From a virus (lineage: Duplodnaviria; Caudoviricetes): a stretch of 58,712 bases of DNA. This document shows, one piece after another, positions 29,503 to 47,531 of this stretch. The notes under the pieces were generated by a model. It saw only the letters and a list, made by a program, of their open reading frames with translations. It was not told where the DNA came from and ran no database searches. Position 1 is the stretch's first letter. Each line of letters starts with the position of its first letter. The stretch is from positions 1 to 58,712 of IMG/VR virus record IMGVR_UViG_3300049489_000482; one strand, 5' to 3'. A program made the position numbers and the translations under genes.

Positions 29503-30939
29503 TCAGAGGCGTTCCGGTTTGTGGCCGGCCTGCTCCATGCGGTCGAGCGCCACGGCGACGTATCGCGGGTCCAGTTCAATGGCTCGGGCGATGCGTTGGA
29601 GCTTGTCGGCGGCGACCATCGTGGCGCCGGCTCCGTGGAAGTTGTCGAGGACGATCTGGCCTGGCTTGGTGCTGTTCTCGATGGCGCGTGCGGCGAGTTC
29701 GACGGGCTTCTGCGTCGGGTGCAGATACTCCGCGGCGTTGTCGCGTCCGATTTCCCATGCGTCGGTTGGCTGCGGGTTCCCGATGGTGATGCGGTTGCCA
29801 GTCTTGACGCGGATGTGGCGCCACTTGCCCTTCGGCGGCTTGCTGCGGATGAATAGGTGCGCGTTGGCGCCGTTGGAGATGTGGAGTCCGCTGGCGACGG
29901 CGATGTGGATGTCTCCGCCGCTGGCCTCCGCGATCCGCCAGACGGTGGCCTGCGTCCGATCTCCGTGGAATGAGGCGCTTCCGTCGGCGCGCTCGCAGTA
30001 GAAGCATGGCTCCGTCTGCCAGTGATAGTCGGCGTGGCCGAGAACAAATCCCTCCTTTACCCATGTGATGTATTGCTTCTCGCGCAGCCCGACGGCGTCG
30101 AGGGCGTGTTCGAAGTCGCGCCGAGTGGCTGCCGCGTGCCAGATGTAGGCAGCTCCGTTCCTGGCGAGCCGCTCGACGGCCGGACGCATGGCGGGGATCA
30201 GGAAGTTTGCCAGCGCGTTGTGTGTCAGGTCGTCGTTTGCGATCTTCTTCTTCCCTTTGGCCTGGTAGCTCACGCCGTATGGCGGGTCGGTGTAGTAGAG
30301 CTGGACGGTTTCCGCGTCGAGCAGGCGCTCGTACAGCTTCGGGTCGGTGCTGTCTCCGCAGACGATGCGGTGCGGGCCGGCCCGCCACATGTCCCCGACC
30401 TTCACCGCCCACTTGGCGTGCAGTTCCTCGATGCGCTGTTCCGTGGCGGACGGCTGCGGTGTTTCGTTGGTGTCGCCGGTCGCCAGCAGCCGCTTCAGTT
30501 CCGCCTCGTCGAACCCGACGACGGTCATGTCCACATCCTCCTCGAGTAGCGCCTGCAGTTGCGACCGCAGACGTTCGTCGTCCCAGTCGCCTCCGTGCTT
30601 GTTGGCGGCGATCATGGCGGCGGTTTCCGTGGTCTTGTCCCATGTGACTTCGCGGTAGCTGAACCGTTCCCCTTCAAACTCGATGTGCCCAAGCGCCGTC
30701 GTTCCGGTGCGTGTCGGCTTCGTGAAGCGATGAGTGATCTCCGGTACGCTCTCCTTTGGGTTGAAGTTCTTCACGCGCTGATGCCCGCCCACGGCGTGCC
30801 CGGTCTTGGTGTTGAAGATGATGCCGCTCAGGTCGCCGAACCGGCGCATGGATTCCCGCAGCGCCTGCAGCTTTGCGTCGGTGATGACGCGCGGATTGTC
30901 GGGGTGCGGAGGCGGTAGTGCGGACTTCGTTGTTTTCAT
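29503..30939 (-). CDS. ParB-N domain fused to adenine DNA methyltransferase
   Basis: 'PDNPR...GGHQR' ParB domain; TDPPY, HPTQKP, DNFHGAGAT. Confidence 0.85.
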   Translation of the reverse strand: MKTTKSALPPPHPDNPRVITDAKLQALRESMRRFGDLSGIIFNTKTGHAVGGHQRVKNFNPKESVPEITHRFTKPTRTGTTALGHIEFEGERFSYREVTWDKTTETAAMIAANKHGGDWDDERLRSQLQALLEEDVDMTVVGFDEAELKRLLATGDTNETPQPSATEQRIEELHAKWAVKVGDMWRAGPHRIVCGDSTDPKLYERLLDAETVQLYYTDPPYGVSYQAKGKKKIANDDLTHNALANFLIPAMRPAVERLARNGAAYIWHAAATRRDFEHALDAVGLREKQYITWVKEGFVLGHADYHWQTEPCFYCERADGSASFHGDRTQATVWRIAEASGGDIHIAVASGLHISNGANAHLFIRSKPPKGKWRHIRVKTGNRITIGNPQPTDAWEIGRDNAAEYLHPTQKPVELAARAIENSTKPGQIVLDNFHGAGATMVAADKLQRIARAIELDPRYVAVALDRMEQAGHKPERL

Positions 30940-36427: not shown

Positions 36428-36922
36428 CTACGGATGCGCGCCAGCACTTTCCGGTGCCCGGTCGATGGCTGTCTCTCCGGTGACCACGGTGAGCGCCACG
36501 GCTCCGCCTCCGGTGCGGACCGGTATGGTTCCATCCACGGTGTTCAACTTCAGTTGCGCCGGGTCATCGGTGCTTGTTTCCGCGGCGTCCTTGTGCGCCG
36601 GCCTCGGGATGGCCAGCTTGACCTTGACCACCGCCGGCTTGTCGGTGCAGTCCAACACGACGGGCATGTTGAACTTCAGCTTGCCGTCGAAGTGATCCGC
36701 CTGGATTTGCCGCAGCGTCCTCCAGTTCTTCACCAGCAGTTGCTTGGCCTCAATCAGGACGCTGGCGACAATCATCGAGTCCTGTTCGCTCAACTCGCAG
36801 TTTTGGCGCACGCTCGCCGCGACGTTGTCACGGTTCGCGAGGTCGATGTCCACGACGTTGGTGACCGTCTTTGTCCGGACGGTCTTCGGTGTTTTGGCTT
36901 TCGCCGGTTTCTTCTTACTCAT
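36428..36922 (-). CDS. Hypothetical protein
   Basis: ORF in gene order. Confidence 0.5.
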   Translation of the reverse strand: MSKKKPAKAKTPKTVRTKTVTNVVDIDLANRDNVAASVRQNCELSEQDSMIVASVLIEAKQLLVKNWRTLRQIQADHFDGKLKFNMPVVLDCTDKPAVVKVKLAIPRPAHKDAAETSTDDPAQLKLNTVDGTIPVRTGGGAVALTVVTGETAIDRAPESAGAHP

Positions 36923-36969
36923 TGTTTTGTCCTTCGGTTTTCGTGCCAGCACCATGCTGGTTTGAAATC

Positions 36970-37383
36970 TTATTTGTTCGTCCAACAAATCAGCACGCCC
37001 TCAAACGGCAAGCCGTGTGTCGTCTCGAACCACTGTAGCATTTCGAGACGGTTAGCAAAGCCATCGGCGCGAGCGAATGCTTCCTCGTCGTGAAGTGCGA
37101 GGCCGCAGAGGGTGCATCCAAGCGCGCTGATTGTGATCGGCAGCGTTTTGGTGATGACCGCTTCCCGGAGCACTCGCTGTTTCGAGCGATATGGTTTGCC
37201 CGTCCATGAGCGCAGGCTGATACGGTCGCCCGGTTCCGGCATCCGTTTCGGCGTCGGGCGGACTGTTTGCAGCTTCTCGCCGCGCTCGACGAGTTCCGCA
37301 AACTGCGGCTTGAACATCCGCACAAAAGAGGATGAACCAGCCGCTTCAGCGATCGGATGGATTGCGTCTCTAGTGTTTTTCAT
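36970..37383 (-). CDS. ASCH/PUA-like protein in an ectopic gene cassette
   Basis: 'FKPQFAELVERGEKLQTVR...FARADGF'; start codon lies inside an attC. Confidence 0.7.
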   Translation of the reverse strand: MKNTRDAIHPIAEAAGSSSFVRMFKPQFAELVERGEKLQTVRPTPKRMPEPGDRISLRSWTGKPYRSKQRVLREAVITKTLPITISALGCTLCGLALHDEEAFARADGFANRLEMLQWFETTHGLPFEGVLICWTNK

Positions 37384-37422
37384 AGCATTGGCCCAGCCGT
37401 CGCTGAGTTTGGGTCGTTCGAT
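37331..37422 (+). mobile_element. Solitary attC site
   Basis: GATGAAC..CTTCAGCGA...TCGCTGAG.TTGGGTC.GTTCGAT; right arm almost identical to attC5 and attC6. Confidence 0.7.
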
Positions 37423-37424
37423 CT

Positions 37425-38414
37425 TCATTGGAGGTATGCCTTCCGCTTCTCCGCCCGGTGCGACGCGCCCGCCATCCGCAGTATCGCGTATCCACATTCC
37501 GCGAGCCTGTCCTGCATCCGCTCGCCGATGATGGCAAACAGTTCTTCCTTCGAGGCTAGGTTTCCGATCAGCACCGTCTTCATTTCCTGGTTGTAGCGGT
37601 GGCTCAGGATGTCGTGGATCACCGGGAACTCGTCCCGTCCACCCGTGCTCAGTCCCATCTCGTCCAGCACAAGGCACGGCGTCCGCTTGCAAACGGCGAC
37701 GATGTCCTCCGCACGCTCGTCCCGGTAGGTCCGGCGCAGCGCGTTCAGGAGTTCCTGCTGTGTCAGCATCCGACCGCGCTTGCTCGCCCGCAGGATGCTA
37801 ACTCCGAGATGCGACTTGCCGGTGCCCTTGTCTGGCCCGATCAGGCAGATGAACCCGGAACGGCACGCGATGAAGCGCCGGACGGTGGTGAGCGTGTTCT
37901 GCTCGCCGGCATCGCGCGGCACGAAGTTGTCAATCGTTGCGTGCGTCATGTTCCTCGGGACGCCGCTGTCGATCAACTTCTGCGCCGCCGCGTTCGCAGC
38001 GGCGTTGGCGTGGCACTTCCCGCACGGCAGGTAGAACGCGCATGGCTCGTTGCCCTGCGCGATCCACCGGGACATCTCCGGGATGTCGAACGCCAGCGCG
38101 GTGTCGGGATGCTTGTCGCACCGCTTCACCTCGCGTGTGGCAGCCCACGCCGCCGCCCGCTTTTGATTCGCGATGTTCGCCCTCATCGCCCGCTCAAGTC
38201 CGGCGCAAGCGGCGGTGAGCACGGTGTCGATGGAGTCCGTTGCCGGCCCGAGCCGTAGCCTCCACCCGTCCTGCTTCGGCGCGCATTCCTGACATATCCA
38301 CTCGTGCCCATCGACGTTGATCGTCTCTCCGATCTGCGCCTGCTCAGGTCCGGTCGCGAACGCCACGACGGACGTTCCAGAGGTGATCGTCTTGGTTGAG
38401 GTGAATTGCTTCAT
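37425..38414 (-). CDS. DnaC/IstB-like AAA+ helicase loader
   Basis: GPDKGTGKSHL, LVLDEMG, 'HRYN..KTVLIGN', 'GERMQDRL'. Confidence 0.8.
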   Translation of the reverse strand: MKQFTSTKTITSGTSVVAFATGPEQAQIGETINVDGHEWICQECAPKQDGWRLRLGPATDSIDTVLTAACAGLERAMRANIANQKRAAAWAATREVKRCDKHPDTALAFDIPEMSRWIAQGNEPCAFYLPCGKCHANAAANAAAQKLIDSGVPRNMTHATIDNFVPRDAGEQNTLTTVRRFIACRSGFICLIGPDKGTGKSHLGVSILRASKRGRMLTQQELLNALRRTYRDERAEDIVAVCKRTPCLVLDEMGLSTGGRDEFPVIHDILSHRYNQEMKTVLIGNLASKEELFAIIGERMQDRLAECGYAILRMAGASHRAEKRKAYLQ

Positions 38415-39166
38415 GTTGATGTCGGGTCCGTCCACGGTGTTCCGTCAAAGTTCTCGACGCCGGCCACGAACGGAACGGGCGCTTTCGGCTGTGCCTTCGG
38501 CGGTGTGTGCCCGCCCTTCGGTTCAAAGATGCCCTGGTATCCGGACGCCGTGGAGTGACGCAGTGCGGCCAGTGCTCTGGCGGTGCCAATTCCGCAGAGA
38601 AAACCGAGTTGCTTGCCGGCTGCCGTCGGCGTGATCGGCTGGCGCTTTTCCCGTCGGTGCTGCTGCCAGTCCTTCCACGCATCCTGCATCTCGGGAGTGT
38701 CCAGTTCAACGGGGAGCGGATAGTCCGGCGCCAACGGCGCCTTCTTCTTTCCGATCAGTTCTTCTGTTCCATTGTTCTTCTTTGTCGCGGGTTCCCCGTC
38801 GTCCGGGTTTCCCACGGACGGGTTTCCCACAGCACGGGAACCCGTATTGTGGCTCTCCGGCTCCTGCGGTGTGTCGTAGAATTCCCAAACGCACCGGGCG
38901 AACCTGTTCTCCGCGTCACGCTCCTTGTGCAGCGTCACGTACCGCTTCGCCATCAGTTCCTTGAGGGCGGAGTTCATGGCATCCCGGCCCTCTGTGCCCT
39001 GCTCTTCGAGCCACGTCTTGGTCACCTCCCACGATCCGGTGTTGCTCAGAACCATCGCGAGCAAGCCCCGCGCCTTGAAGCTCAGTGTCTTGTCGCGAAG
39101 CATGGCATTCGGAAGCACGGTGAAGTCCTTCGTGCAGTTGGATTTAAAGATGCGTTGAGGTTTCAT
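38411..39166 (-). CDS. Replication initiator (HTH, lambda O-like arrangement)
   Basis: 'FTVLPNAMLRDKTLSFKARGLL'; internal repeats; adjacent to a DnaC-like gene. Confidence 0.75.
   Translation of the reverse strand: MKPQRIFKSNCTKDFTVLPNAMLRDKTLSFKARGLLAMVLSNTGSWEVTKTWLEEQGTEGRDAMNSALKELMAKRYVTLHKERDAENRFARCVWEFYDTPQEPESHNTGSRAVGNPSVGNPDDGEPATKKNNGTEELIGKKKAPLAPDYPLPVELDTPEMQDAWKDWQQHRREKRQPITPTAAGKQLGFLCGIGTARALAALRHSTASGYQGIFEPKGGHTPPKAQPKAPVPFVAGVENFDGTPWTDPTST
38740..38850. other. Candidate replication origin (iterons plus adjacent pyrimidine/T-rich tract)
   Basis: CGGG(T/A)-type repeats at 38788, 38804, 38819 and 38835 inside the initiator gene. Confidence 0.55.
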
Positions 39167-39303
39167 GCGGGGAGGAAAAAACGACCGGACGGCGAGTTGA
39201 AAAACAGCGGTGAAGTTCCGCCCGCGCGTTTCCGCGCCACGCCGATCCGGTCGTCAGAGTTTGTTTCCTTCATACGTTCGGGTTTTTCAAGCCCGCAGTG
39301 GTG

Positions 39304-40416
39304 TCACCTTGCTCCGAGCAGTTCCTGTGAGTCAACGATTTCGTAATCGAGCGCCCGGTATACCTCCACGCGGCGCCTGCTGTGCTTCGCCATCAGCGGG
39401 TGCTGGTGATCGGTGAAGTCGTAGATTGTCCCGTGCTCTTTGCCGGCAAACGCGCGCAGCACGCGGCCCGTCCTCTGCTCCGTCTTGGTGCTGCTTCGCC
39501 CACCGCTGACGAGCACCAGCACGTTCGCCCTGGGAAGGTCCAGCCCCTCGTCGGCGAGTGACGTTGCCACGATGCACCACACGGTGCCCGCCTGGAACGC
39601 CTGGAGCGCCTCACGCCGCGCCTTCGCGCCCATCTTGCTGTGGCACAGCCTAGCGCCCGGCAGGCGCGCACACAGGGCATCCCCGTGCTCGATCTGGTTC
39701 ACGAGAACCAGCACGGCGTCGCCCCGATGCGCGAGCGCAGCGGCCACGGCCGCCTCGTTCCTGGCGCGGTTCTGGACGATGCCCATTTCGATGCACGCCT
39801 GCCACGCCACCTGTCCCCACAGTTGGCCGGGGTCGCCCCTCCAGAACCGTTGCCGCCAGCGCATGTCGGTGGCGATCTTGGCGTCAATCGGCTGTTGCAG
39901 GTCCGGGTCTGTCGCGTCGAGCATGACGACGCGGGCGTGCGCGAGACGCCTGGCCACCGCCTGCCGGTCGATGGTGAATCTGTCGGTGCCAAAGATGACA
40001 GCCATCGCCTCGTTCCGCTCCGGGTCTTCGCTGTACGGCGTCGCGGTGAATCCCCAGCGTGCGCCCGTGCAGGACTCGATCTGCGTGCGCCACGCGGGCG
40101 CTGGCGCGTGATGGCACTCATCCACGATCAGCAGCGCGCAGTCGCTCCAGTCGGTTGCGGCCGCCGCGCAGGCAACGCGCCGCTCGATGCGGCACGGGAA
40201 GTTGTCGAGTGCCTTATGCGCCTGCTGGCACTGCTCCTGTGTGTTCGCCATCCAACCGACGCGCACGGGATGCTCGCGACCTCGGGCGGTGACCACGGAC
40301 TGGATTGCCGCCGCTGCGATGACCGTCTTGCCGCTTCCGGCCGGCGCGATGCAGATGGCCCGACGCCGGGTGCGTATCCACTCGACTGCGCTCTTCTGGT
40401 AGAGTTCGAGGGTCAT
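39304..40416 (-). CDS. SF2 (DExH) helicase
   Basis: APAGSGKT, DECHH, TAT, EGLDLP, QRTGR. Confidence 0.9.
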   Translation of the reverse strand: MTLELYQKSAVEWIRTRRRAICIAPAGSGKTVIAAAAIQSVVTARGREHPVRVGWMANTQEQCQQAHKALDNFPCRIERRVACAAAATDWSDCALLIVDECHHAPAPAWRTQIESCTGARWGFTATPYSEDPERNEAMAVIFGTDRFTIDRQAVARRLAHARVVMLDATDPDLQQPIDAKIATDMRWRQRFWRGDPGQLWGQVAWQACIEMGIVQNRARNEAAVAAALAHRGDAVLVLVNQIEHGDALCARLPGARLCHSKMGAKARREALQAFQAGTVWCIVATSLADEGLDLPRANVLVLVSGGRSSTKTEQRTGRVLRAFAGKEHGTIYDFTDHQHPLMAKHSRRRVEVYRALDYEIVDSQELLGAR

Positions 40417-41363
40417 GCGTCGAGCGGGGATTTAACACTCAACGCATCGGCATGGCAGTAGCGCTCAGTGGTTGTGATCTGAGCGTGGCCCATCGCTTTG
40501 GCAAGTGCCTTGATGTTTGTCCCGCGATTCAGGCAGTGCGTGGCGTAACTGTGCCGCAGTTCGTGCGGAACAGCCATGATGCCAGTCTCTCGGCGAGCGC
40601 GTTTTACGGCGCGCTGAATCGTCGCAGTCAGGAGATGCCATCGAACCATCCGCCTCGGATCATGTGGGTCTGGTGACGGGTATTTCAGTGGAGTGAACCA
40701 TGCCCACTGCCATAAGCATTCAAACTCGGGATACTTGCGTGCCAGTTGATGCGGCAACTGGATTGGGATTTGGTCGCGCACGTCCCGCAACCACGTTTGC
40801 CGCGCCGCTTCCATCTGCTGCTCAATCCGACCAACCAGAGCGCACGGCATTTTGACGACACGGTCATGTCCACACTTCGGCTCGCGAATGGTGATCTGCT
40901 GCTGTCCGATGTCGATGTCCTTAATCCGAAGCGCAACTGCTTCACCCACGCGAAGCCCGCAGCCGTAAAGTAGATGCGTCACTAGGTTTGCAGGGTATCC
41001 TCCAGTGTCGCTCACCGCTGCCAGAAGCGTCCTTACTTCTTCCACCGGAAGCGCACGGCGCATGTGCTCTGGGCGTTGCGCCCGTAACGCGTCAATGTCC
41101 TTAAGTTTCACGCCGAGGCAGTCTCTGTAAAAGAACAAGATAGCATTGAACGCCTGGTTTTGTGTCGCTGCGGAAACGTCGCGAGCAGCAAGTTCTGTCA
41201 GGAACCGCTCCATCTTCTGCTCGCTGGTGAGCACGGACGGCATCTGGAATATGGCAGTGATGTAGCGCTTGATCCATTGTTTGTAATTGTCCTCTGTCGC
41301 CAGTGATTTGTGCTGTCTCCGCATCACATCCACCGCTCTCTGGATTGCCTGCTCCTTATTCAT
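40413..41363 (-). CDS. intI: Integron integrase (tyrosine recombinase)
   Basis: SAATQNQAFNAILFFY, GLR, HELRHSYATH, GH..TT..Y, plus the IntI-specific insert LPHQLARKYP..WQWAWF..PDP..RWH. Confidence 0.9.
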   Translation of the reverse strand: MNKEQAIQRAVDVMRRQHKSLATEDNYKQWIKRYITAIFQMPSVLTSEQKMERFLTELAARDVSAATQNQAFNAILFFYRDCLGVKLKDIDALRAQRPEHMRRALPVEEVRTLLAAVSDTGGYPANLVTHLLYGCGLRVGEAVALRIKDIDIGQQQITIREPKCGHDRVVKMPCALVGRIEQQMEAARQTWLRDVRDQIPIQLPHQLARKYPEFECLWQWAWFTPLKYPSPDPHDPRRMVRWHLLTATIQRAVKRARRETGIMAVPHELRHSYATHCLNRGTNIKALAKAMGHAQITTTERYCHADALSVKSPLDA

Positions 41364-41402
41364 AAGCGAACACTTCCTTTGGCTTAAACACCGTTCCACA
41401 TC
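41364..41402 (+). mobile_element. attI-like site (crossover G|TTCCAC at 41393)
   Basis: Abuts the intI start; GTTCCACATC is the complement of the first cassette end GATGTGGAAC (41853). Confidence 0.65.
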
Positions 41403-41403
41403 T

Positions 41404-41850
41404 TCAATAGTCGCCCTCGTCGTTGTAGTCGTCCCAGTCCAGTTTGGCGTCTTTCCACTGCGCCGCCCCGCCGAGGTCATCGAGCAGCTTGCGCGCTTTT
41501 CGGGCGCGGTCTATCGCGGCTTGGCTCTTGATTGCTTCTTCCTCCAGTGACTTCTGGTAGCGGTCTATGACTTCCGCTGCCGAGCCTTTGCAGTGGCCGT
41601 ATCGCCGTTCCCAATCCACCACGGGCATCGTTTTCATTTCCTCGACTTCGTTGGCGAGGCGTTGGAGTTCGCCAGCGCTTTTGATGCAGGCGTTTTTTAG
41701 CGGCGCGAGTCCGGCGAGGATTTTCTCCATGCCGAGGATTGCGGTTGCGGCGCTTTCGCCGTCCTTCACTTCGACCGTCAGGTCGTAGCGGACGTGCTCG
41801 TAGTTGCCGAGGTTGTAGAGTCTGCCGATTGTGATTTTGGTTACGTTCAT
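41404..41850 (-). CDS. Cassette 1 hypothetical protein
   Basis: 148 aa; fills cassette 1. Confidence 0.75.
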   Translation of the reverse strand: MNVTKITIGRLYNLGNYEHVRYDLTVEVKDGESAATAILGMEKILAGLAPLKNACIKSAGELQRLANEVEEMKTMPVVDWERRYGHCKGSAAEVIDRYQKSLEEEAIKSQAAIDRARKARKLLDDLGGAAQWKDAKLDWDDYNDEGDY

Positions 41851-41855
41851 TCGAT

Positions 41856-41944
41856 GTGGAACAATTCAGTGCAGGCAACGGCGGGTTGCGCTGCGGGTTT
41901 ATTTCGAGTCGTCAGGTCCGCCGTGCCTGACTTCACCGTTGGAG
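41856..41944 (+). mobile_element. attC1
   Basis: GTGGAAC..GTGCAGGCA/TGCCTGAC..GTTGGAG. Confidence 0.85.
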
Positions 41945-42246
41945 GACTCCATGCCGGCGTTCGCGGTGTGCTGTTTCAGAGCCACCGGCACGGAGTCCAG
42001 ATTCAGTTTCTTTTGTGAGGCCGCACCGACCGCCCAGTCGCGGACTTGCAGCCAGATTTCTTGCTTCGATTTTTCCGTTTCGATTTTGGCTTCGATCCAT
42101 GCCCAGTCGCGCAGCTCGGCGAGCATCCACGCGAGTTCTTCCAGTCTCTTTGGGTTCGCCCGTCCTCCAACCATTCCCTGATGCGAATCGCCACCGCGCC
42201 GCGCGCGTGGCAATTCGGGAGTCGGTTGAGCGGTGGCGATTCGCAT
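41899..42246 (-). CDS. Cassette 2 hypothetical protein
   Basis: Starts in attC2, ends in attC1. Confidence 0.55.
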   Translation of the reverse strand: MRIATAQPTPELPRARRGGDSHQGMVGGRANPKRLEELAWMLAELRDWAWIEAKIETEKSKQEIWLQVRDWAVGAASQKKLNLDSVPVALKQHTANAGMESSNGEVRHGGPDDSK

Positions 42247-42262
42247 AGGTCAGTCGTTGTCC
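42165..42262 (+). mobile_element. attC2
   Basis: CTCCAAC..ATGCGAATCGCCACCGC/GCGGTGGCGATTCGCAT..GTTGTCC. Confidence 0.85.
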
Positions 42263-42543
42263 GTCTTTGCCGCCCACCGATCCACCGCGCGATGGTTGCT
42301 CCAGCATGGATGCAGTTCGACCGCGCGACGCATCGCGTCGGGGCTGTTTGCCCATCCCATCTGCATCGGCTTTCCCTCTTCGTCGTCGCACCATATTTCG
42401 TAGCGTTGTCCACGGTCGCCAACCGCCGGCAAAGACGGACAACCAGCCGGTGCAGCGAATGAGCCGCGAGGCTTTTTCCTGCATTTAGACCCGTCATTCC
42501 AACACTCCGCGAACTCCGGGGCGCAATCGTCACAGTGGCTCAT
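42250..42543 (-). CDS. Cassette 3 hypothetical protein
   Basis: Starts in attC3. Confidence 0.55.
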   Translation of the reverse strand: MSHCDDCAPEFAECWNDGSKCRKKPRGSFAAPAGCPSLPAVGDRGQRYEIWCDDEEGKPMQMGWANSPDAMRRAVELHPCWSNHRAVDRWAAKTDND

Positions 42544-42564
42544 CGCTGACCTCCATCGTTAGGC
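42437..42564 (+). mobile_element. attC3
   Basis: GGACAAC..GTGCAGCGAATGAGCC/GGCTCATCGCTGAC..GTTAGGC. Confidence 0.85.
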
Positions 42565-42822
42565 CGCATCGTATTCGGCCAAGATTGTTTCTGTGATCCT
42601 GACTGGCACATACTCGACTCCTGGGTCGGGCTTTGGCTTCCGAGAGATGGCCTCCATGACCTCGGCCCGGTCAAAGTATTGCCCCACGTCGCAGACCCAC
42701 TTTCTGTCCGCGAATTTCCGCAGCATCCAGTATTGGTCGGTTTTGGTTTCCGGCGGCCTAACCACGGCGCTGCTGCCAACAGCCGCCCCGCTTGGCACGC
42801 TCGGAGTCACAGGTTCTTTCAT
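42559..42822 (-). CDS. Cassette 4 hypothetical protein
   Basis: RBS and ATG lie in the attC4 loop; stop lies in the R' box of attC3. Confidence 0.65.
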   Translation of the reverse strand: MKEPVTPSVPSGAAVGSSAVVRPPETKTDQYWMLRKFADRKWVCDVGQYFDRAEVMEAISRKPKPDPGVEYVPVRITETILAEYDAA

Positions 42823-42882
42823 GGTTTCCTTTCCGCTCTACCCATGCCGTCGGGCGGCTGTGGCAGAGCTTGGTCGTTAGGA
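42756..42882 (+). mobile_element. attC4
   Basis: GCCTAAC..CTGCCAACAGCCGCCC/GGGCGGCTGTGGCAG..GTTAGGA. Confidence 0.85.
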
Positions 42883-43092
42883 GACATTTTCTTCGGCCAC
42901 GTAAATGTTGTGTGCATTGTCTTTCCGGGTCACACACACTTGGTCATGCCATCCTTTGTGCGGATAGTTGGCGCACACTATCCCTTCGCCTCTGTATTCG
43001 GCGGTGTCCACCATTACTCGGTCGCCGATCTTGCGTCCCGGCCTGATTGCTTTTGCGAGCGCGTATAGCGCGTTTGATATTAGTGTTCTCAT
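42877..43092 (-). CDS. Cassette 5 small protein (SH3/KOW-like)
   Basis: 'KIGDRVMV...GEGIV'. Confidence 0.6.
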   Translation of the reverse strand: MRTLISNALYALAKAIRPGRKIGDRVMVDTAEYRGEGIVCANYPHKGWHDQVCVTRKDNAHNIYVAEENVS

Positions 43093-43101
43093 TCGTTTGT
43101 T

Positions 43102-43125
43102 GTCGCTGAGCTTGGGTCGTTAGGC
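43102..43125 (+). mobile_element. attC5, right arm only
   Basis: GTCGCTGAGCTTGGGTCGTTAGGC with no left arm. Confidence 0.7.
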
Positions 43126-43338
43126 CACATACGTCGCCCATCGTTTATGCTGACCGCATCCTTCACCGAGCAGCCGCTCCACCGATTCGCGGCAGTCGGC
43201 GGCGTTGTGGATGAGCAGCGGGCCGTTGTCGTAGATTTCGCCGGTGCTGGGATGTTGCCACTCAGCGCGTGGTTCGCACCAGCACTGCGCGGAGTGCTCA
43301 TGTTCTCTTTCATCGTTTAGAGGTATGACGTTGACCAT
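43120..43338 (-). CDS. Cassette 6 His/Cys-rich small protein
   Basis: 'VIPLND..EH...CWCEP...IHNAADCRE'. Confidence 0.65.
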   Translation of the reverse strand: MVNVIPLNDEREHEHSAQCWCEPRAEWQHPSTGEIYDNGPLLIHNAADCRESVERLLGEGCGQHKRWATYVA

Positions 43339-43341
43339 GTG

Positions 43342-43434
43342 GCCTAACCATGCGCTCCAGCGAACCCGGCGGGGGCGTTGCGGTTGCAATCGTTGCCTCC
43401 CGTGCGCCGGGTCGCTGAGCTTGGGTCGTTCGCC
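43342..43434 (+). mobile_element. attC6
   Basis: GCCTAAC..CTCCAGCGAACCCGGCG/CGCCGGGTCGCTGAG..GTTCGCC. Confidence 0.9.
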
Positions 43435-43778
43435 AGATGCAGCAGCGGGAGCGTCTGCCCAGCCAGACCATCGGTCGAGTCGCCGAGGTGTTGGCACATC
43501 CCGTCCGTCAGCCAGATGTGGCTCACATTCCCGTCGGCGTGTGTTGTCTTCACGCTCGGCTTGAGCGTCGGCTTGAGCGTCGAGCCGTTCCACGTCCACG
43601 CATTTGCTGCGTCGCGGCTTCCGTGGGTGATGACTGGCAGCAGAATTGGGAACTCGTAGCCGTGCGGCTGGAAGCGCAGATAGTCGCGACCGTTGCGATG
43701 CTCCAAACACGAAACTGGCGAACAAGGCGCTGCACCCGCAACTGCCGCTTCGCCTGTCCGTTCAGAGTCAGATTTCAT
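43344..43778 (-). CDS. Cassette 7 DUF6527-like protein
   Basis: 'WTWNGSTLKPTLKPSV..HIWLTDG..LGDST..LAGQT'; tail reads through attC6. Confidence 0.7.
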   Translation of the reverse strand: MKSDSERTGEAAVAGAAPCSPVSCLEHRNGRDYLRFQPHGYEFPILLPVITHGSRDAANAWTWNGSTLKPTLKPSVKTTHADGNVSHIWLTDGMCQHLGDSTDGLAGQTLPLLHLANDPSSATRRTGGNDCNRNAPAGFAGAHG

Positions 43779-43844
43779 TTCGATTCGTTTCTTTGCGCTC
43801 GACCCGTCCCGCCAGCGGCAGTGGGGTGAGCTTGGCTGTTCGCC
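43717..43844 (+). mobile_element. attC7
   Basis: GGCGAAC..CTGCACCC..ACTGCCGCT/AGCGGCAGT.GGGTGAG..GTTCGCC. Confidence 0.8.
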
Positions 43845-44404
43845 AAACGAATGACGCGCCCCGGTAGTCCCGAGCGTTCGAGGGCCAGCGTGTTCGTTTC
43901 GTCGTAGGAGATGAGCGCGGACGGTCCGCCAGCGTTTGCCCCTGCCCGCGTCCCGTCCACATGGTAGAAGTAGAGCCGCCCCCACAAGAACAGGATCGCG
44001 TGCGCCTTCTTCCAGACGTGCTCCACCCAATCCGCTGTTTCCGTCCGTGCAAAGATCAGCGCGGTTGCGTTGCCGTGCTCCGCGCACCGTGCCAGCCAGC
44101 GCCCCGTCTCGCGGCCATACGGAGGATTGCACCAGACGCGACCACTCCACGGCAGCCGCAGCCCATTGTCGCGCACCGTGTAGTGCTTCGATGCAGTCGG
44201 CCACGGCCGATTGATCGGGCTGCACGGGTCGAGGTCGAAAGCCCCGAGAGCGGTCAGGATCTCGGGCGGCGTCAGCCACTCGTCTTTGCCCATCCGGTGC
44301 GAGTGATGCCCCCCGATGCCGCGACCAGAATTGGCGAACCAGGCGGTGGACTCAACAGCCATGAGCGGCGGAGTTTCGAGGGTAGCGGAGTCGTTTGCGC
44401 TCAT
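43775..44404 (-). CDS. Cassette 8 phage Dam-like N6-adenine methyltransferase
   Basis: DEWLTP, FDLDPC, WCNPPYG. Confidence 0.85.
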   Translation of the reverse strand: MSANDSATLETPPLMAVESTAWFANSGRGIGGHHSHRMGKDEWLTPPEILTALGAFDLDPCSPINRPWPTASKHYTVRDNGLRLPWSGRVWCNPPYGRETGRWLARCAEHGNATALIFARTETADWVEHVWKKAHAILFLWGRLYFYHVDGTRAGANAGGPSALISYDETNTLALERSGLPGRVIRLANSQAHPTAAGGTGRAQRNESK

Positions 44405-44410
44405 GGTGGT
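44333..44410 (+). mobile_element. attC8 with degenerate right arm
   Basis: TTGGCGAAC complements the cassette start at 43838; inner stem CCATGAGCG/CGCTCATGG. Confidence 0.55.
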
Positions 44411-44418
44411 GCCATCGC

Positions 44419-44583
44419 TTATGCGTTCGAGCGCCGGGCGACGCGCTTGGGTTTGCGTTTCGTTTTTGCCCACCGAGCGGCCACTGCCGCCCGTGCCTGT
44501 TCGGAACTTCGCGCCTTGGCCGCGCCCGTCCCGGCTTTGCCGCCGAGTCTGCCGAGCGCGACCGCCGCTGGATTTTTAGTCAT
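44419..44583 (-). CDS. Small basic 'AVALGRLGG..ARW' protein
   Basis: MTKNPAAVALGRLGGKA...AARW. Confidence 0.7.
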   Translation of the reverse strand: MTKNPAAVALGRLGGKAGTGAAKARSSEQARAAVAARWAKTKRKPKRVARRSNA

Positions 44584-44866
44584 TGCTCGTGTCCTCCACC
44601 TCTCGAACGTAGTCCTTGCGGTCTTGGGCCGTGCCTTTGGCTTGGCCGGGGTCGTTGTCGCCGGGCAGAATGAGCCGGTATTTAGACTCATCGCGCCAAA
44701 GTTGGTAGCGGGCCTTGTCTGCCTCATCGTAGTCCGTCCATGCCCCGCGAAATTGCCAAGAGACCGTCTTTAGCTCCTCGTCGTATTGCCGCACAAACAG
44801 CCGGTAGTGAGTCGCGGTGTCGTAGGTCTGTTGCTCGCCTTTGTGAGTTGTCGCTGTGTTGGTCAT
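44576..44866 (-). CDS. Hypothetical protein
   Basis: First ORF after the promoter. Confidence 0.55.
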   Translation of the reverse strand: MTNTATTHKGEQQTYDTATHYRLFVRQYDEELKTVSWQFRGAWTDYDEADKARYQLWRDESKYRLILPGDNDPGQAKGTAQDRKDYVREVEDTSND

Positions 44867-44907
44867 TTGCTTTTGGTGTCTCGGCTTACTGGGCCTCAAC
44901 TGCAAAC

Positions 44908-44936
44908 ACTCTACGCAAGCGGTTGCGTATATGCAA
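44908..44936 (-). promoter_or_regulatory. Sigma70-like promoter TTGCAT-N17-TAGAGT with an overlapping palindrome
   Basis: Intergenic; TACGCAA-N4-TTGCGTA at 44912-44929. Confidence 0.65.
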
Positions 44937-44965
44937 GAGTTATTTTCACATTGCTTCCGATCTGC

Positions 44966-46627
44966 TTAACTTGGGTCGGTAGGCACCAGTGAGAGAGCCT
45001 TGCGTGCCTCCTCACGTCCGGCTCTGTTAGGACCGCTACCCGCCGATGTGATCGTCAGTCTGTGCTTTGCCCTGGTCATCGCCACGTAAAACAGCCGCCG
45101 ATCTTCCTCGCTCGGCTCTTTGGCTGCGGCGGCGCTCTCGTCGCACTCGGGCAAGACCACGTTGTCGAACTCAAGACCTTTCGCTCCGTGCATCGTCATG
45201 ATGCGGATGCCGTCCATGTCGCCCGCCATCACGCGCTTCGTTTCCTCATTGCAGATGCTGATGAGCAGGTCGCCCATTGTCGCACGCGCCGGCAGTGTGC
45301 CCGCGATTTCCTCCACGATGTCGGCGCTGGCCGCCGTGCATCCGTGTGCCCTCACCACTCGGGCGGCGTAGTGTGGCGTGAACTGGCCACCCTCGACGCA
45401 AATTCCGCTCGCGCCGGCCAGCGTGGTGCCGCCCTGGATTGCAGCCAATCGAGCCTCGTTGATCTGTGCCGGCGTCCTGCCGCACTGGCGCAGGTAGCTG
45501 GCGGTGATCTCCGTGTTGCTCGGGTTCGCCAGAACCGCCAGCAGCGTTTTGGCTTTGCGCCAGTCCTCCGGGAAGACGCGATCCTTGCGGATGGCCAGCG
45601 GATAACCGTGCTCCGCAAGTAGCGCGGCGAACCGTTGCACCTGTGCGTTGGTGCGGACCAGGATGGCGGTTGCTGACGATTCGTCCTCCAGTTCCTGGCT
45701 CAGGTGGCCCATGAGTTCGGTGTCCTCGGCGCCGCGCGTCGCGTAGTAGGAGACCACCACCGCTCCGCCTTCGTGCTCCGCAGTCATGTTCTGCTGCGCC
45801 CGCTCCTTGTTCTGCTCGATCACTTTCCGCGCCGCGTCGCAAATGGCTTTCCGGCAGCGGTAGTTCCGTTCGAGCCTGATGACGTTCCACTCCGGGCTGT
45901 TGAAGTGCTCCATGAACAACTCCACCTTGGCTCCACGGAATCGGTAGATGCTCTGGTCGGGGTCGCCGACCACGAACTTGGTCTTGGTGGTGATGGCGTC
46001 GTAAATCTCCCAGTCCAGCGCGCTCGAATCCTGCGCCTCGTCCACGAGCAGGTGCCTGACCGGAACAAGTCCTACCGGAGCGATCTTGATCAGGTCGCGT
46101 CCCACGTCGAGCAGCGTGTCAAAGTCGAGCATGCCGGTGCGCGCCATCGTCGCCCGGAACTCCGCCGCCACAAGTTCCGCCGCCGTCGGCGGATTGCTAC
46201 GCGCCGGGTAGTGCCGTAGCGCGTCCGTCAGCGCGGTCTTGGTGCCCTTGTATCCGAGGCGCTTCTTGACGCCGTCCAACAGTTCCTCCGCAGCGTCCTC
46301 GTCGATAATTGTCGGCGGGACGAAGATGCCGACCAGACACCGCGCGGCCTCTTTGGTGAGCAGTCGGAAGAGCCAGCCGTGAAGCGTGCCCACGTAGCCG
46401 AGCCGCTGCGCTGCGGCCTCGTTGCGGCCCGCCGCGAGGCGCTGAACCATCTCGCCGGCTGCGGCGTTGGTGAACGTGATCGCCACGATGCCGGCCGGGT
46501 CCTCGCCGCTGTCGAGCAGGTGGTTGATGCGCTCGACGAGCACCATCGTCTTTCCGGAGCCTGGCGTGGCGACGACGAGCGTGTTGCGGTGCGGTGTGGT
46601 AACGGCGAGTTTCTGTTGATCGTTCAT
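44966..46627 (-). CDS. UvrD/PcrA-like SF1 helicase
   Basis: ATPGSGKT, TFTNAAA, VDEAQD, VGDPDQSIYRFRGA, NYR, HGAKGLEF, FYVAMTRAK. Confidence 0.92.
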   Translation of the reverse strand: MNDQQKLAVTTPHRNTLVVATPGSGKTMVLVERINHLLDSGEDPAGIVAITFTNAAAGEMVQRLAAGRNEAAAQRLGYVGTLHGWLFRLLTKEAARCLVGIFVPPTIIDEDAAEELLDGVKKRLGYKGTKTALTDALRHYPARSNPPTAAELVAAEFRATMARTGMLDFDTLLDVGRDLIKIAPVGLVPVRHLLVDEAQDSSALDWEIYDAITTKTKFVVGDPDQSIYRFRGAKVELFMEHFNSPEWNVIRLERNYRCRKAICDAARKVIEQNKERAQQNMTAEHEGGAVVVSYYATRGAEDTELMGHLSQELEDESSATAILVRTNAQVQRFAALLAEHGYPLAIRKDRVFPEDWRKAKTLLAVLANPSNTEITASYLRQCGRTPAQINEARLAAIQGGTTLAGASGICVEGGQFTPHYAARVVRAHGCTAASADIVEEIAGTLPARATMGDLLISICNEETKRVMAGDMDGIRIMTMHGAKGLEFDNVVLPECDESAAAAKEPSEEDRRLFYVAMTRAKHRLTITSAGSGPNRAGREEARKALSLVPTDPS

Positions 46628-46674
46628 TCGTTTTTCGTTTTGTTCTTTGGAGTGTGCCGCCCGTGGGCGGGTTG

Positions 46675-46914
46675 TCAATTTGGAACCGGCTCCACCGTGA
46701 TCATCTTGGTCTGCAACCCGTATTCCTGCGCTTGGACGAGCGCGTCGATTGGCCGCGAGAACTTCGTGGCGTCCTTGTCGCCGACCATTTGCCAGACCTT
46801 GCCTCGGGCGTTCTGCACGAACTGGACGGCGTAGCCTCGGTAGCGGATGACGTATTGCGGTGCCGGCAATGTCGTTTCCGTTGTGTGTTGGTTGATCGGG
46901 TTGTATTTGCTCAC
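46675..46914 (-). CDS. Hypothetical protein
   Basis: GTG overlaps the upstream stop. Confidence 0.45.
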   Translation of the reverse strand: MSKYNPINQHTTETTLPAPQYVIRYRGYAVQFVQNARGKVWQMVGDKDATKFSRPIDALVQAQEYGLQTKMITVEPVPN

Positions 46915-47531
46915 AAGATGTTCCTCCCGGCTTCCAGCATGATGTTGAGGCAGACGCCGCACCGCAGTGATTCACCATCCCTTCTGGTAGTCCACTGGCC
47001 GTGCGGACGGCGGCCGCACTCCGCGGCGCTGGTCTTGCCTTTGTTCGGCACCAGATGCCGCACGGCGTCGTTGGTGTCGGTTTTCCACGTCATCGGCCGC
47101 ACCCGGCGCATCTCCCTCACGGTTGGCGCCGCCAACGCGAGCCACTGCGGTGGCTCCGCCTCGGCTCGGTGCCATGCCTGCCTGCTACGCTGGTTGTAGG
47201 GTCCGCCCGGTTGCAGGGCGGACATGATGCTCCAGACGCGGGCGTACGGCGCGCCCTTGTGTTCCTGGCCTCGGGTCGCGTGAACCGCGGCCTTGAAGTT
47301 CGAGTAGTCGATTCGGGACGCGATTTCGGTGACGAACGCCACCGCCGCCGCGTGGCTGCACACGATCCGGTATCGGTAGTCGCCGGACGGCGTCTCGATC
47401 CATCTCGTTCCGCGCAGCGCCTTGGTGCGCGCGGCGTTCTCGATGTCGGCGCGCTCGCGTGCGCGCACTTGGAACTCGCCGGGGTGCCGCTCGACGATGC
47501 TGAAAAAACCCGCTGTTGATGCCATCCACAT
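46911..47531 (-). CDS. Conserved hypothetical phage protein
   Basis: 'MW....GFFSIV..VRAR..DYRYR..IDYSNFK' pattern. Confidence 0.65.
   Translation of the reverse strand: MWMASTAGFFSIVERHPGEFQVRARERADIENAARTKALRGTRWIETPSGDYRYRIVCSHAAAVAFVTEIASRIDYSNFKAAVHATRGQEHKGAPYARVWSIMSALQPGGPYNQRSRQAWHRAEAEPPQWLALAAPTVREMRRVRPMTWKTDTNDAVRHLVPNKGKTSAAECGRRPHGQWTTRRDGESLRCGVCLNIMLEAGRNIL

What the first reader, a model, noticed from the sequence alone, without database searches (positions are those of the whole stretch)
41393..44936. Cassette ORFs are antisense to attC and read from a distal promoter toward intI
Seen: judged by the extra base in the left L box and the position of attI, the attC top strand is the plus strand, pointing away from intI as in canonical integrons. 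Yet all eight ORFs are on the minus strand. A TTGCAT-N17-TAGAGT promoter at 44908-44936 faces into the array from the far end. Known: canonical cassettes are co-oriented with attC and driven by Pc near attI. Inference: the logic is inverted to fit the single-strand phage transcription. A new cassette at attI would be the most promoter-distal, and intI would be co-transcribed after its cargo.
Basis: partly seen in the sequence, partly recalled or inferred. Interest (0 to 1): 0.85.

Follow-up and report, generated by a model that had tools for sequence, protein, structure and literature searches.

The report
Phage integron with backward-facing gene cassettes
A tailed phage carries a complete integron whose recombination sites point the usual way, away from the integrase gene, but whose captured genes all read the opposite way, which shows that the gene-capture platform has been refitted to a one-directional virus genome.

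Summary
The core observation holds. The window is a whole 58.7-kb tailed-phage genome coding only on the minus strand. It carries intI (40413-41363, minus), a conserved attI core with its crossover at G41393/T41394, and seven attC sites (41856-44431) plus one solitary attC (37331-37422), all with their top strand on the plus strand.

Polarity rests on four lines:
- The extrahelical bases sit at positions 16 and 23 on the AAC arm.
- attI lies next to the intI start in 9 of 9 loci.
- One relative holds a 100% identical duplicated cassette with exact G|TT junctions.
- The same model, run on bacterial arrays of this attC family, finds sense ORFs there.

All eight cassette ORFs are on the minus strand. 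Five have homologs, and all score as coding there. They are packed like an operon, and several start inside the attC loop.

Viral relatives give 0 sense, 23 antisense and 14 unclear cassettes. Bacterial arrays give 20, 2 and 19. Cargo includes DNA methyltransferases and a Lar-like protein.

The proposed distal promoter exists as sequence but is a chance-level match (3/6 and 4/6). Transcription is not shown. I found no prior description of this arrangement. Verdict: a new variant of a known kind.

The parts
40413..41363 (-). intI, integron-type tyrosine recombinase (316 aa)
   Evidence: TIGR02249 integron integrase scores 254.8 bits (cut-off 265), covering residues 8-315 against model positions 3-313 of 315. 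The best Xer-type model scores 135.9 bits. PF00589 spans 202 residues for 167 model positions, which implies an insertion of about 35 residues.
41364..41399 (+). attI; crossover between G41393 and T41394
   Evidence: The first-cassette start matches the reverse complement of the attC1 R'' box at 10 of 12 positions. A core like TTAATCA-NN(N)-G just before the TT recurs in 9 of 9 loci, 30-70 nt from the intI ATG. It also occurs in sense-type relatives.
41856..41944 (+). attC1 (closes cassette 1, 41394-41938)
   Evidence: R1 scores 63.0 bits on the plus strand. Extra bases on the left arm.
42165..42262 (+). attC2 (cassette 2, 41939-42256)
   Evidence: R1 scores 42 bits. 17-bp perfect stem; only the first extra base is present.
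42437..42564 (+). attC3 (cassette 3, 42257-42558)
   Evidence: R1 scores 52.6 bits. The cassette start and R'' form a 17/17 inverted repeat (pair I3).
42756..42882 (+). attC4 (cassette 4, 42559-42876)
   Evidence: R1 scores 54.8 bits. The loop holds an AAGGAA-type ribosome site and the ATG of ORF4 on the minus strand.
43101..43127 (+). right-arm remnant of a lost attC5 between ORF5 and ORF6 (fused cassette 42877-43428)
   Evidence: A 20-nt stretch is identical to the right arm of attC6 (family D10). The model gives 3.8 bits, E 3.7.
43342..43434 (+). attC6
   Evidence: R1 scores 62.6 bits on plus and 4.3 bits on minus. Its right-arm 17-mer is found in at least 120 stretches of bacterial genomes.
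43717..43844 (+). attC7 (cassette 7, 43429-43838)
   Evidence: R1 scores 47.6 bits. The loop holds the ORF7 ATG, which overlaps the ORF8 stop as ATGA at 43775-43778.
44333..44431 (+). attC8, weaker (cassette 8, 43839-44425)
   Evidence: R1 scores 27.7 bits, E 1.6e-4. The ORF8 ATG (44404) lies inside it.
41404..41850 (-). ORF1, 148 aa, conserved protein of unknown function
   Evidence: 244 homologs at E of 1e-5 or better, up to 93% identical. Markov scan positive on minus.
41899..42246 (-). ORF2, up to 115 aa; start uncertain
   Evidence: Pooled Markov on the cassette body: minus-strand call. No family hit.
42250..42543 (-). ORF3, up to 97 aa; only the part encoded by the cassette body is conserved
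   Evidence: 10 homologs, 68-89% identical over 56-62% of the query.
42559..42822 (-). ORF4, 87 aa; its stop codon is the first triplet of its cassette
42877..43092 (-). ORF5, 71 aa; its stop codon is the first triplet of its cassette
43120..43338 (-). ORF6, 72 aa
   Evidence: phrog_2864, E 7e-12.
43344..43778 (-). ORF7, 144 aa, DUF6527
   Evidence: PF20137, E 6.3e-8. phrog_3362, E 6.1e-14. A 68%-identical homolog in L133 keeps an attC at its 5' side.
43775..44404 (-). ORF8, 209 aa, Dam-type DNA N6-adenine methyltransferase
   Evidence: PF05869, E 2.4e-12. phrog_111, E 1.9e-42.
44419..44866 (-). ORF9 (44419-44583) and ORF10 (44576-44866); no attC found, so cassette status is open
   Evidence: no family. 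Markov scan positive on minus for 44544-44900.
   Evidence: Present but matches only 3/6 and 4/6. The scan finds no promoter in 40000-47500.
44964..44984 (+). attC right-arm-like relic overlapping the 3' end of the UvrD-like helicase gene
   Evidence: 86% identical to the right arm at 43105-43125 (family D1). No full attC.
36970..37422 (.). solitary cassette outside the array: attC 37331-37422 (+) and minus-strand ORF 36970-37392 that starts in the attC loop
   Evidence: R1 scores 35.2 bits, E 1.9e-6. The ORF hits phrog_8581, E 1.2e-12. Sequence.

Best explanation
This is a genuine, regular-type integron (intI, attI, then attC sites whose top strand points away from intI) resident in the early/replication module of a tailed phage. 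Its cassettes are built backwards: the gene lies on the attC bottom strand. In many cassettes the ribosome site and ATG sit in the attC loop. The reading frame runs out through the L''/R'' arm and ends at or just beyond the cassette's first bases. Because IntI fixes the polarity of insertion, such reverse cassettes always land co-oriented with intI and with the rest of the one-strand phage genome. They can then be read as one tightly packed, partly translationally coupled operon that ends in intI. Shown here: the site polarity, the coding strand, the packing, the recurrence in relatives, and the contrast with bacterial arrays. Inferred: IntI activity on these sites, co-transcription, where transcription starts, and a counter-restriction role for cargo such as the DNA methyltransferases.
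For: Polarity. Extra bases lie on the AAC arm at positions 16 and 23, separated by a 6-bp stem. That is the published top-strand geometry: the passages I read in PMC5027507 place the EHBs on the AAC arm of the top strand, at positions 16 and 23/24, with a 6-bp stem, and with a conserved T on the bottom strand. Here position 23 is A on the plus strand in 68 of 77 phage-type sites. The attI core lies next to the intI ATG in 9 of 9 loci. In L011, one cassette of 290 bp at 100% identity occurs twice. Both left junctions fall exactly at G|TT, one behind a 38-bp attI copy and one behind another attC, and in both copies the attC travels at the same end. Control: the same model on Verrucomicrobiota and Planctomycetota-type bacterial arrays gives sense ORFs. 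The longest ORF is sense in 34, antisense in 4 and tied in 3 of 41 cassettes. Pfam hits 13 families in 41 sense ORFs and 0 in 40 antisense ORFs. Coding strand in phage arrays. PHROGs hits 14 families in 43 antisense ORFs and 1 in 42 sense ORFs. The longest ORF is antisense in 28, sense in 5 and tied in 10 of 43 cassettes. The pooled Markov model gives sense/antisense/unclear counts of 0/6/0 for the window, 0/23/14 for viral loci, 20/2/19 for bacterial arrays and 2/0/1 for Rctr41k. A bottom-strand ATG inside the attC opens an ORF of at least 50 codons in 48 of 72 phage-type sites, against 11 of 49 and 7 of 28 in the two sense-type sets. The 72 include L137, which duplicates L001. Gaps on the minus strand are 54 nt or less, and one junction is an ATGA overlap. 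The window is a phage: large terminase at E 3.7e-161, plus portal and protease.
Against: The first extrahelical base would be C on the bottom strand, where the published norm is 'usually G'. The bacterial arrays of this family share the trait: position 16 is G on the top strand in 35 of 49 sites. DNA folding energy does not favour the minus strand. Plus is more stable in 4 of 8 sites and minus in 4 of 8, and z-scores are modest. IntI misses the TIGR02249 cut-off by 10 bits. No mobility is shown for the window's own cassettes, and none is shared with any fetched locus. Several ORFs read across cassette borders, one attC is lost and one is weak, which could mean a partly frozen array. One sense ORF in the phage set hits a PHROG, and 14 of 37 viral cassettes are unclear. 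Backbone co-orientation fails in L003, L004, L155 and L165. My model was built from sites picked by my own scanner, so the pairing statistics are partly by construction. No transcription data exist.
Confidence: 0.8

Rival explanations
1. The recombinogenic strand is the opposite one. On this reading the minus strand is the top strand, cassettes are ordinary (ORF followed by attC), the array starts at the far end near 44.9 kb, and intI sits at its distal end.
For: On the minus strand, ORF4, ORF5 and ORF6 end with TAA inside a YCTAAC box, as many ordinary cassette genes do in R'' (that comparison is recalled knowledge). The inverted repeats that flank each ORF body are symmetric, so they fit either reading. 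The extra base at position 16 is G on the plus strand, which is the usual bottom-strand base. Folding energy is neutral.
Against: The extra bases would then sit on the wrong arm. A conserved attI core abuts intI in 9 of 9 loci, and it is homologous to the one in sense-type relatives. The duplicated cassette in L011 carries the attC on the side this reading forbids, and it joins attI at G|TT on the plus-equivalent strand. The same model polarity gives sense ORFs in bacterial arrays. The far end has only a right-arm relic and no attI-like site.
Confidence: 0.06
2. The array is a largely frozen relic. On this reading the cassettes were captured long ago, the attC hairpins now serve mainly as intercistronic RNA or translation elements, and IntI has another job such as dimer resolution or phage integration.
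For: Cassette 5/6 is fused. attC8 is weak at 27.7 bits. Right-arm relics lie at 43101-43127 and 44964-44984. ORF2, ORF3, ORF7 and ORF8 run across cassette borders and are coupled to their neighbours.
Against: Six attC sites score 42-63 bits with intact R boxes and extra bases. Each cassette start is still complementary to its own R''. Cassette content differs completely between phages whose IntI proteins are 54-61% identical. L011 holds a 100% identical cassette copy at an attI junction. The DUF6527 cassette in L133 keeps its attC, with a compensatory change in the start/R'' pair.
Confidence: 0.12
3. The plus-strand ORFs are the real cassette genes and the minus-strand ORFs are high-GC shadows.
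For: Long plus-strand ORFs exist in every cassette, and they cover the body equally well in 2 of 6 window cassettes. One sense ORF in the relatives hits phrog_38519 at E 1.8e-6.
Against: No plus-strand window scores positive in the Markov scan. The pooled model of 6 window cassettes antisense. Five of 8 minus-strand ORFs have homologs. PHROGs hits 14 families for antisense ORFs and 1 for sense ORFs.
Confidence: 0.02

Closest known systems
Regular-type bacterial integrons, here the chromosomal arrays of Verrucomicrobiota and Planctomycetota-type MAGs with the same attC family (L020, L038, L075, L091) and the sense-type intI loci L144, L152 and L158
   Same: IntI of the same family, 49-54% identical. 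A homologous attI core at the same distance from intI. The same attC model, with the same bases at positions 16 and 23. intI and the attC top strand lie on opposite strands.
   Different: In the bacterial arrays the ORFs lie on the attC top strand and fill the cassette body ahead of R''. Here every cassette gene lies on the bottom strand, often starts inside the attC, and is co-oriented with intI.
[quoted passage not shown] The type is named in the PMC13323075 passages I read. The example at hand is Virus Rctr41k, KX853513.
   Same: Everything ends up co-oriented with intI. Rctr41k is a phage whose cargo also includes methyltransferase-like genes.
   Different: Rctr41k inverts intI relative to the array and keeps sense cassettes: the attC sites are on the intI strand and 3' of intI, with 2 sense, 0 antisense and 1 unclear cassette. 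The window keeps the regular intI-attI-attC layout and inverts the genes instead.
Integrons and attC clusters reported in phage genomes (Qi et al. 2023, PMC9892861; I read the abstract, the outline and passages)
   Same: Phage-borne intI, attI and attC. The Shewanella M16-3 and P1 records are also hits for this IntI, at 31-36% identity.
   Different: The passages I saw describe fragments of bacterial integrons, class 1 mosaics and integrase-less clusters. [quoted passage not shown] A search of that text for 'opposite' and 'antisense' found nothing, and for 'Rctr' nothing.
Single reverse-oriented cassettes in bacterial chromosomal integrons, such as toxin-antitoxin cassettes. This is recalled knowledge; a figure legend in PMC13108822 mentions the orientation of TA systems in the array.
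   Same: A gene antisense to its attC.
   Different: In bacteria these are exceptions among sense cassettes. In my control, 2 of 41 cassettes were called antisense, both in L075. Here the whole array is antisense, and so is every typed cassette in 8 viral relatives.

Membership tests
Integron (regular type) | IntI-type tyrosine recombinase that passes the curated integron-integrase model | tested here: inconclusive
   TIGR02249 scores 254.8 bits against a cut-off of 265, aligned over its full length. The best Xer-type model scores 135.9 bits. Sources name homologs 'integron integrase'.
Integron (regular type) | IntI-specific extra domain inserted in the catalytic domain | tested here: met
   PF00589 covers residues 105-306 (202 aa) for model positions 3-169, which implies an insertion of about 35 residues. 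TIGR02249, which contains this region, aligns end to end. Catalytic residues were read by eye only.
Integron (regular type) | attI next to the 5' end of intI, with a G|TT crossover | tested here: met
   The core is conserved in 9 of 9 loci. The window's G is at 41393, and the cassette start is complementary to R'' of attC1 at 10 of 12 positions. An attI-cassette junction is seen in L011.
Integron (regular type) | attC sites with R''/L''/L'/R' boxes, an unpaired spacer, extrahelical bases and a variable loop | tested here: met
   Seven array sites at E of 1.6e-4 or better. Spacers of 5-7 nt and extra bases at positions 16 and 23. All 9 RNAalifold pairs show compensatory changes. 85.8% of cells are paired, against 31-42% when the partner is slid. 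Caveat: the sites were chosen for arm pairing.
Integron (regular type) | intI and the attC top strand on opposite strands, pointing apart | tested here: met
   intI is on minus and all attC sites are on plus. The same holds for 89 of 90 model hits in the 52 metagenome loci searched, out of 80 fetched.
Integron (regular type) | Cassettes move as units by IntI recombination | tested here: inconclusive
   Shown only in relatives: the L011 duplicate and the L133 homologous cassette. Nothing was seen for the window itself. Enzyme activity cannot be tested with these tools.
Integron (regular type) | Promoterless cassette genes co-oriented with the attC top strand and read from Pc at the attI end | tested here: not met
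   All 8 ORFs are on the bottom strand. No promoter-like site was found at the attI end or anywhere in 40000-47500.
Inverted-integrase integron | [quoted passage not shown] | tested here: not met
   They lie on opposite strands in the window. The feature is met in Rctr41k, locus L012.

The most novel reading that the evidence does not exclude
Phages of PVC-type environmental bacteria maintain their own pool of reverse cassettes. In these the attC acts as the gene's 5' leader, with the ribosome site and ATG in the loop. A regular integron can then insert, reorder and drop counter-restriction genes (orphan Dam and C5 methyltransferases, Lar-like proteins) inside a one-strand early operon that also expresses intI. 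Because the recombinogenic bottom strand is then the non-template strand, phage transcription itself would expose it and couple cassette shuffling to infection.
Probability: 0.3. Interest if true: 0.9.

Novelty: new variant of a known kind. Interest (0 to 1): 0.75.

Why it matters
Integron theory holds that bottom-strand selectivity exists to put promoterless genes in the right orientation behind Pc, and that a cassette's rank from attI sets its expression. Here the same platform (IntI, attI and the same attC family as in bacterial neighbours) is used with the genes turned round.

- This separates the recombination polarity from the expression logic.
- It implies a separate route of cassette formation, with the attC at the 5' end of the gene.
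- It reverses the position-expression rule: a newly inserted cassette would sit last in the operon, just before intI.
- It shows phages as long-term owners of integrons rather than occasional carriers, with cargo that points to counter-defence.

Annotation pipelines that assume sense cassettes would mis-call such arrays.

Tried and rejected
Per-locus third-order Markov models were under-trained, with mostly negative scores. I replaced them with a pooled second-order model.

GC by codon position was too weak to decide the strand.

tblastx of the window array against 12 loci found no shared cassette. The test of which attC travels with which ORF therefore had to be done in L011 and L133, not in the window.

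DNA folding of both strands of 8 sites gave no consistent energy difference.

The IntI tree used 29 rows; L008, L178 and L191 were dropped for in-frame stops. The window's clade of 10 rows has 8 typed members, all antisense, but its support of 89/99 is below the tool's star threshold. Label clustering overall is not significant: 66 of 500 shuffles were as low. Single-cassette labels such as L155 and L185 are weak.

Expression: no RNA holder is listed. The only run is one DNA run that may be the source of the window.

Logan contigs were laid on 36500-46000. The six joints listed have sides of 21-29 nt at a likeness threshold of 90, and none fits a G|TT excision. I treat them as cross-matches from other attC-bearing DNA, not as evidence of excision. 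The contigs break at attC6.

Literature: searches found no paper that describes a regular-type integron with uniformly antisense cassettes or phage arrays of this kind. This covers only the held library, and supplements were closed.

IntegronFinder and its attC model were not available.

Full report
WHAT THE WINDOW IS. The window is the whole assembly: one contig of 58,712 bp. It is a tailed phage, with a large terminase (26988-28439, phrog_979, E 3.7e-161), a portal, a head protease and a 1,554-aa virion protein. Coding is strictly one-stranded. In 300-nt windows outside the integron, 283 score as coding on the minus strand and 0 on the plus strand (ORF map). The finding lies in the replication module. 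A UvrD-like helicase (phrog_1967) lies upstream. Downstream lie a second helicase, a replication initiator and a DnaC-like loader.

THE INTEGRASE AND attI. The ORF at 40413-41363 (minus strand) matches the integron-integrase model TIGR02249 end to end, at 254.8 bits. This is 10 bits under the curated cut-off and far above the Xer-type models, which reach at most 135.9 bits. Its catalytic domain carries an insertion of about 35 residues relative to PF00589. The family is large: 2,759 proteins at E of 1e-20 or better among the 8,000 candidates scored. Many sit on contigs of 40-77 kb, and several are named 'integron integrase' by their source.

Between the intI ATG and the first cassette lies a short site whose crossover G is at 41393. 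From T41394 the sequence is complementary to the R'' box of the first attC at 10 of 12 positions. The bases just before the crossover form a core that recurs 30-70 nt from the intI ATG in 9 of 9 loci examined. Relatives whose cassettes are in the ordinary orientation have a clearly homologous site.

THE attC SITES AND THEIR POLARITY. A scanner of my own looks for AAC...GTT sites 45-160 nt long and aligns the two arms with gaps. It finds 6 sites in the genome, all within 41856-43844. Five shuffled genomes gave 0, 0, 1, 0 and 1. All six carry their unpaired bases on the left arm.

I aligned these with 24 sites from viral relatives. The plus-strand bases at positions 16 (G) and 23 (A) are nearly invariant. 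RNAalifold leaves position 16 unpaired inside a stem, and all 9 of its pairs show compensatory changes. In a fuller structure, 85.8% of cells pair, against 31-42% when the partner column is slid. The sites were chosen for arm pairing, so this last figure is partly by construction.

The passages I read in Nivina et al. 2016 (PMC5027507) give the rule. Extrahelical bases lie on the same arm as 5'-AAC on the top strand and on the opposite arm on the bottom strand. They sit at positions 16 and 23/24 with a 6-bp stem between them. The last one is a conserved T on the bottom strand. The window fits this with the plus strand as top strand. The one departure is that the bottom-strand base at position 16 is C, not the usual G.

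A covariance model built from the 30 sites (R1) finds 7 array sites and a solitary one at 37331-37422, all on the plus strand. With filters off, the same places score 5 bits or less on the minus strand. MFE folds show the single-base bulges on the 3' arm of the minus strand and on the 5' arm of the plus strand. Energies do not favour either strand; each is the more stable in 4 of 8 sites.

TWO INDEPENDENT CHECKS OF POLARITY. The inverted repeats that flank each ORF body are symmetric, so by themselves they cannot say which end of a site is the crossover. Two further checks address this.

(a) The viral contig L011 holds one cassette twice, as 290 bp at 100% identity. One copy lies in the array behind another attC. 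The other lies behind a 38-bp copy of the attI region. Both left junctions fall exactly at G|TT on the strand equivalent to the window's plus strand. In both copies the attC is carried at the far end. That is the canonical unit: TT, body, attC, G. The second copy lies between a terminase-like gene and the next gene. An assembly artefact cannot be excluded, but it would not be expected to break at the crossover base.

R1 finds dense arrays there, for example 20 sites in 8 kb of L075. In those arrays the ORFs lie on the model's top strand. The longest ORF is sense in 34, antisense in 4 and tied in 3 of 41 cassettes. Pfam hits 13 families among 41 sense ORFs and none among 40 antisense ORFs. The model's polarity is therefore the ordinary one wherever the ordinary arrangement is present. 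Those sites share the G at position 16 (35 of 49) and the A at position 23 (46 of 49).

THE GENES ARE ON THE OTHER STRAND. In the window, ORF6, ORF7 and ORF8 hit families (phrog_2864; DUF6527 and phrog_3362; Dam and phrog_111). ORF1 has 244 homologs. The body of ORF3 has 10 homologs at 68-89% identity. A Markov model trained on the phage's own long genes gives positive scores only on the minus strand across 41364-45000, with dips at the attC sites. A pooled model of 6 cassettes antisense.

On the minus strand the ORFs are separated by 54 nt or less. ORF8's stop overlaps ORF7's start as ATGA. ORF7 stops 5 nt before ORF6's ATG. ORF1 stops 40 nt before intI.

The ATGs of ORF3, ORF4, ORF7 and ORF8 lie inside their own cassette's attC. 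ORF4 has an AAGGAA-type ribosome site in the loop. The stop codons of ORF4 and ORF5 are the first triplet of their cassette, where the TTA of the R' box reads TAA on the minus strand. Other ORFs run a few codons into the neighbouring attC.

THE ARRANGEMENT IS A FAMILY TRAIT. Eleven viral contigs encode IntI relatives at 36-61% identity. Nothing but intI is shared with the window. In L001-L005, L007, L008 and L011 the attC sites lie on the 5' side of intI with the same polarity.

I took the longest ORF on each strand of every cassette, which gave 43 antisense and 42 sense ORFs of median length 113 and 112 aa.
- PHROGs hits 14 families in the antisense set, seven of them DNA methyltransferase families, plus a Lar-like restriction-alleviation protein. 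It hits 1 family in the sense set.
- Pfam adds C5 methylases, Dam, Lar, HTH regulators and DUF6527 to the antisense set.
- The pooled Markov model gives 0 sense, 23 antisense and 14 unclear of 37 viral cassettes.
- A bottom-strand ATG inside the attC opens an ORF of at least 50 codons in 48 of 72 phage-type sites, against 11 of 49 and 7 of 28 in the two sense-type sets. L137 duplicates L001 in the first set.

A 68%-identical homolog of ORF7 in another viral contig, L133, keeps an attC at its 5' side in antisense orientation. It also has a compensatory change in the cassette-start/R'' pair.

Among 80 metagenome loci with IntI relatives I searched 52. Of 90 attC hits, 89 have the regular polarity. 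After dropping 10 duplicate cassettes, 19 are sense, 10 antisense and 19 unclear, and no locus mixes the two. The two types share the attI core.

In the IntI tree the window's clade has 8 typed members, all antisense, but the label is not significantly clustered overall. Backbone genes are co-oriented with intI in most antisense loci, but not in L003, L004, L155 or L165.

A SECOND SOLUTION IN ANOTHER PHAGE. The best hit in the phage collection is Virus Rctr41k, at 37% identity. It has its attC sites on the intI strand and 3' of intI, sense cassettes, and all annotated genes on one strand. This is the known inverted-integrase type; the PMC13323075 passages I read name the two accepted layouts. 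Two phages thus reach full co-orientation by different inversions.

WHAT IS NOT SHOWN. The TTGCAT-N17-TAGAGT sequence is present at 44908-44936, but it matches at only 3/6 and 4/6. The scan reports no promoter in 40000-47500, against 1.0 expected. The host's promoter type is unknown. All 8 terminator-like hits are on the plus strand and at chance level. The start of transcription, co-transcription of intI and the rank-expression relation therefore remain inferences from packing. IntI activity on these sites, and any movement of the window's own cassettes, are untested. Cassette 5/6 is fused, attC8 is weak, and 44426-44985 has no attC.

COMPARISON AND VERDICT. This works like, and by most defining features is, a regular-type integron. 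The feature it fails is the expression design, in which genes lie sense to attC and are read from Pc at attI. Qi et al. 2023 (abstract, outline and passages read) report integron pieces in phages; in the passages I saw, their arrays are oriented in the way typical of bacterial cassette arrays. My five library searches found no description of uniformly reversed arrays. I rate it a new variant of a known kind and of high interest to integron and phage biologists. The architecture is well supported and the expression model is open.

Noticed in passing
window 36970-37422: A solitary cassette lies outside the array, 3 kb beyond the 3' end of intI. Its attC is at 37331-37422 (+, 35 bits). A minus-strand ORF (phrog_8581) has its ATG in the attC loop. 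A GTTCGTC box at 36976-36982 matches the reverse complement of R'' at 6 of 7 positions.
   Followed up: partly
window 43342-43434: In the one public run that holds the window, contigs at least 90% like attC6 sum to a depth of about 1,312, against about 37 for the phage. Their similarity ends at 43342 and 43430. This attC type is therefore very abundant on other DNA in that sediment sample.
   Followed up: partly
L013-L092 and further stretches (genome contigs): The 17-base right arm of attC6 is exact in at least 120 bacterial genome stretches, mostly Verrucomicrobiota and Planctomycetota MAGs. This hints at the host phylum and at a shared attC family between host arrays and phage arrays.
   Followed up: partly
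L011 13027-13350 (locus coordinates): A 38-bp copy of the attI region plus a complete, 100% identical cassette sits between a terminase-like gene and the next gene, about 5 kb from intI. It may be a secondary attI or an assembly join.
   Followed up: partly
window 44964-44984: The last codons of the UvrD-like helicase are encoded by an attC right-arm-like element in which GGT replaces GTT. This may mark the old outer edge of the array.
   Followed up: no
window 29506-30939: The backbone also encodes a ParB-domain DNA methyltransferase (phrog_498, E 2.9e-105), in addition to the Dam cassette. The phage therefore carries at least two methyltransferases.
   Followed up: no
L009/L010 363-768 and 7364-7454: These near-identical viral contigs have attC hits on both strands relative to intI. 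I did not work out their layout.
   Followed up: no
window 42165-42262: attC2 has a perfect 17-bp stem and lacks the second extrahelical base, unlike the other sites.
   Followed up: no
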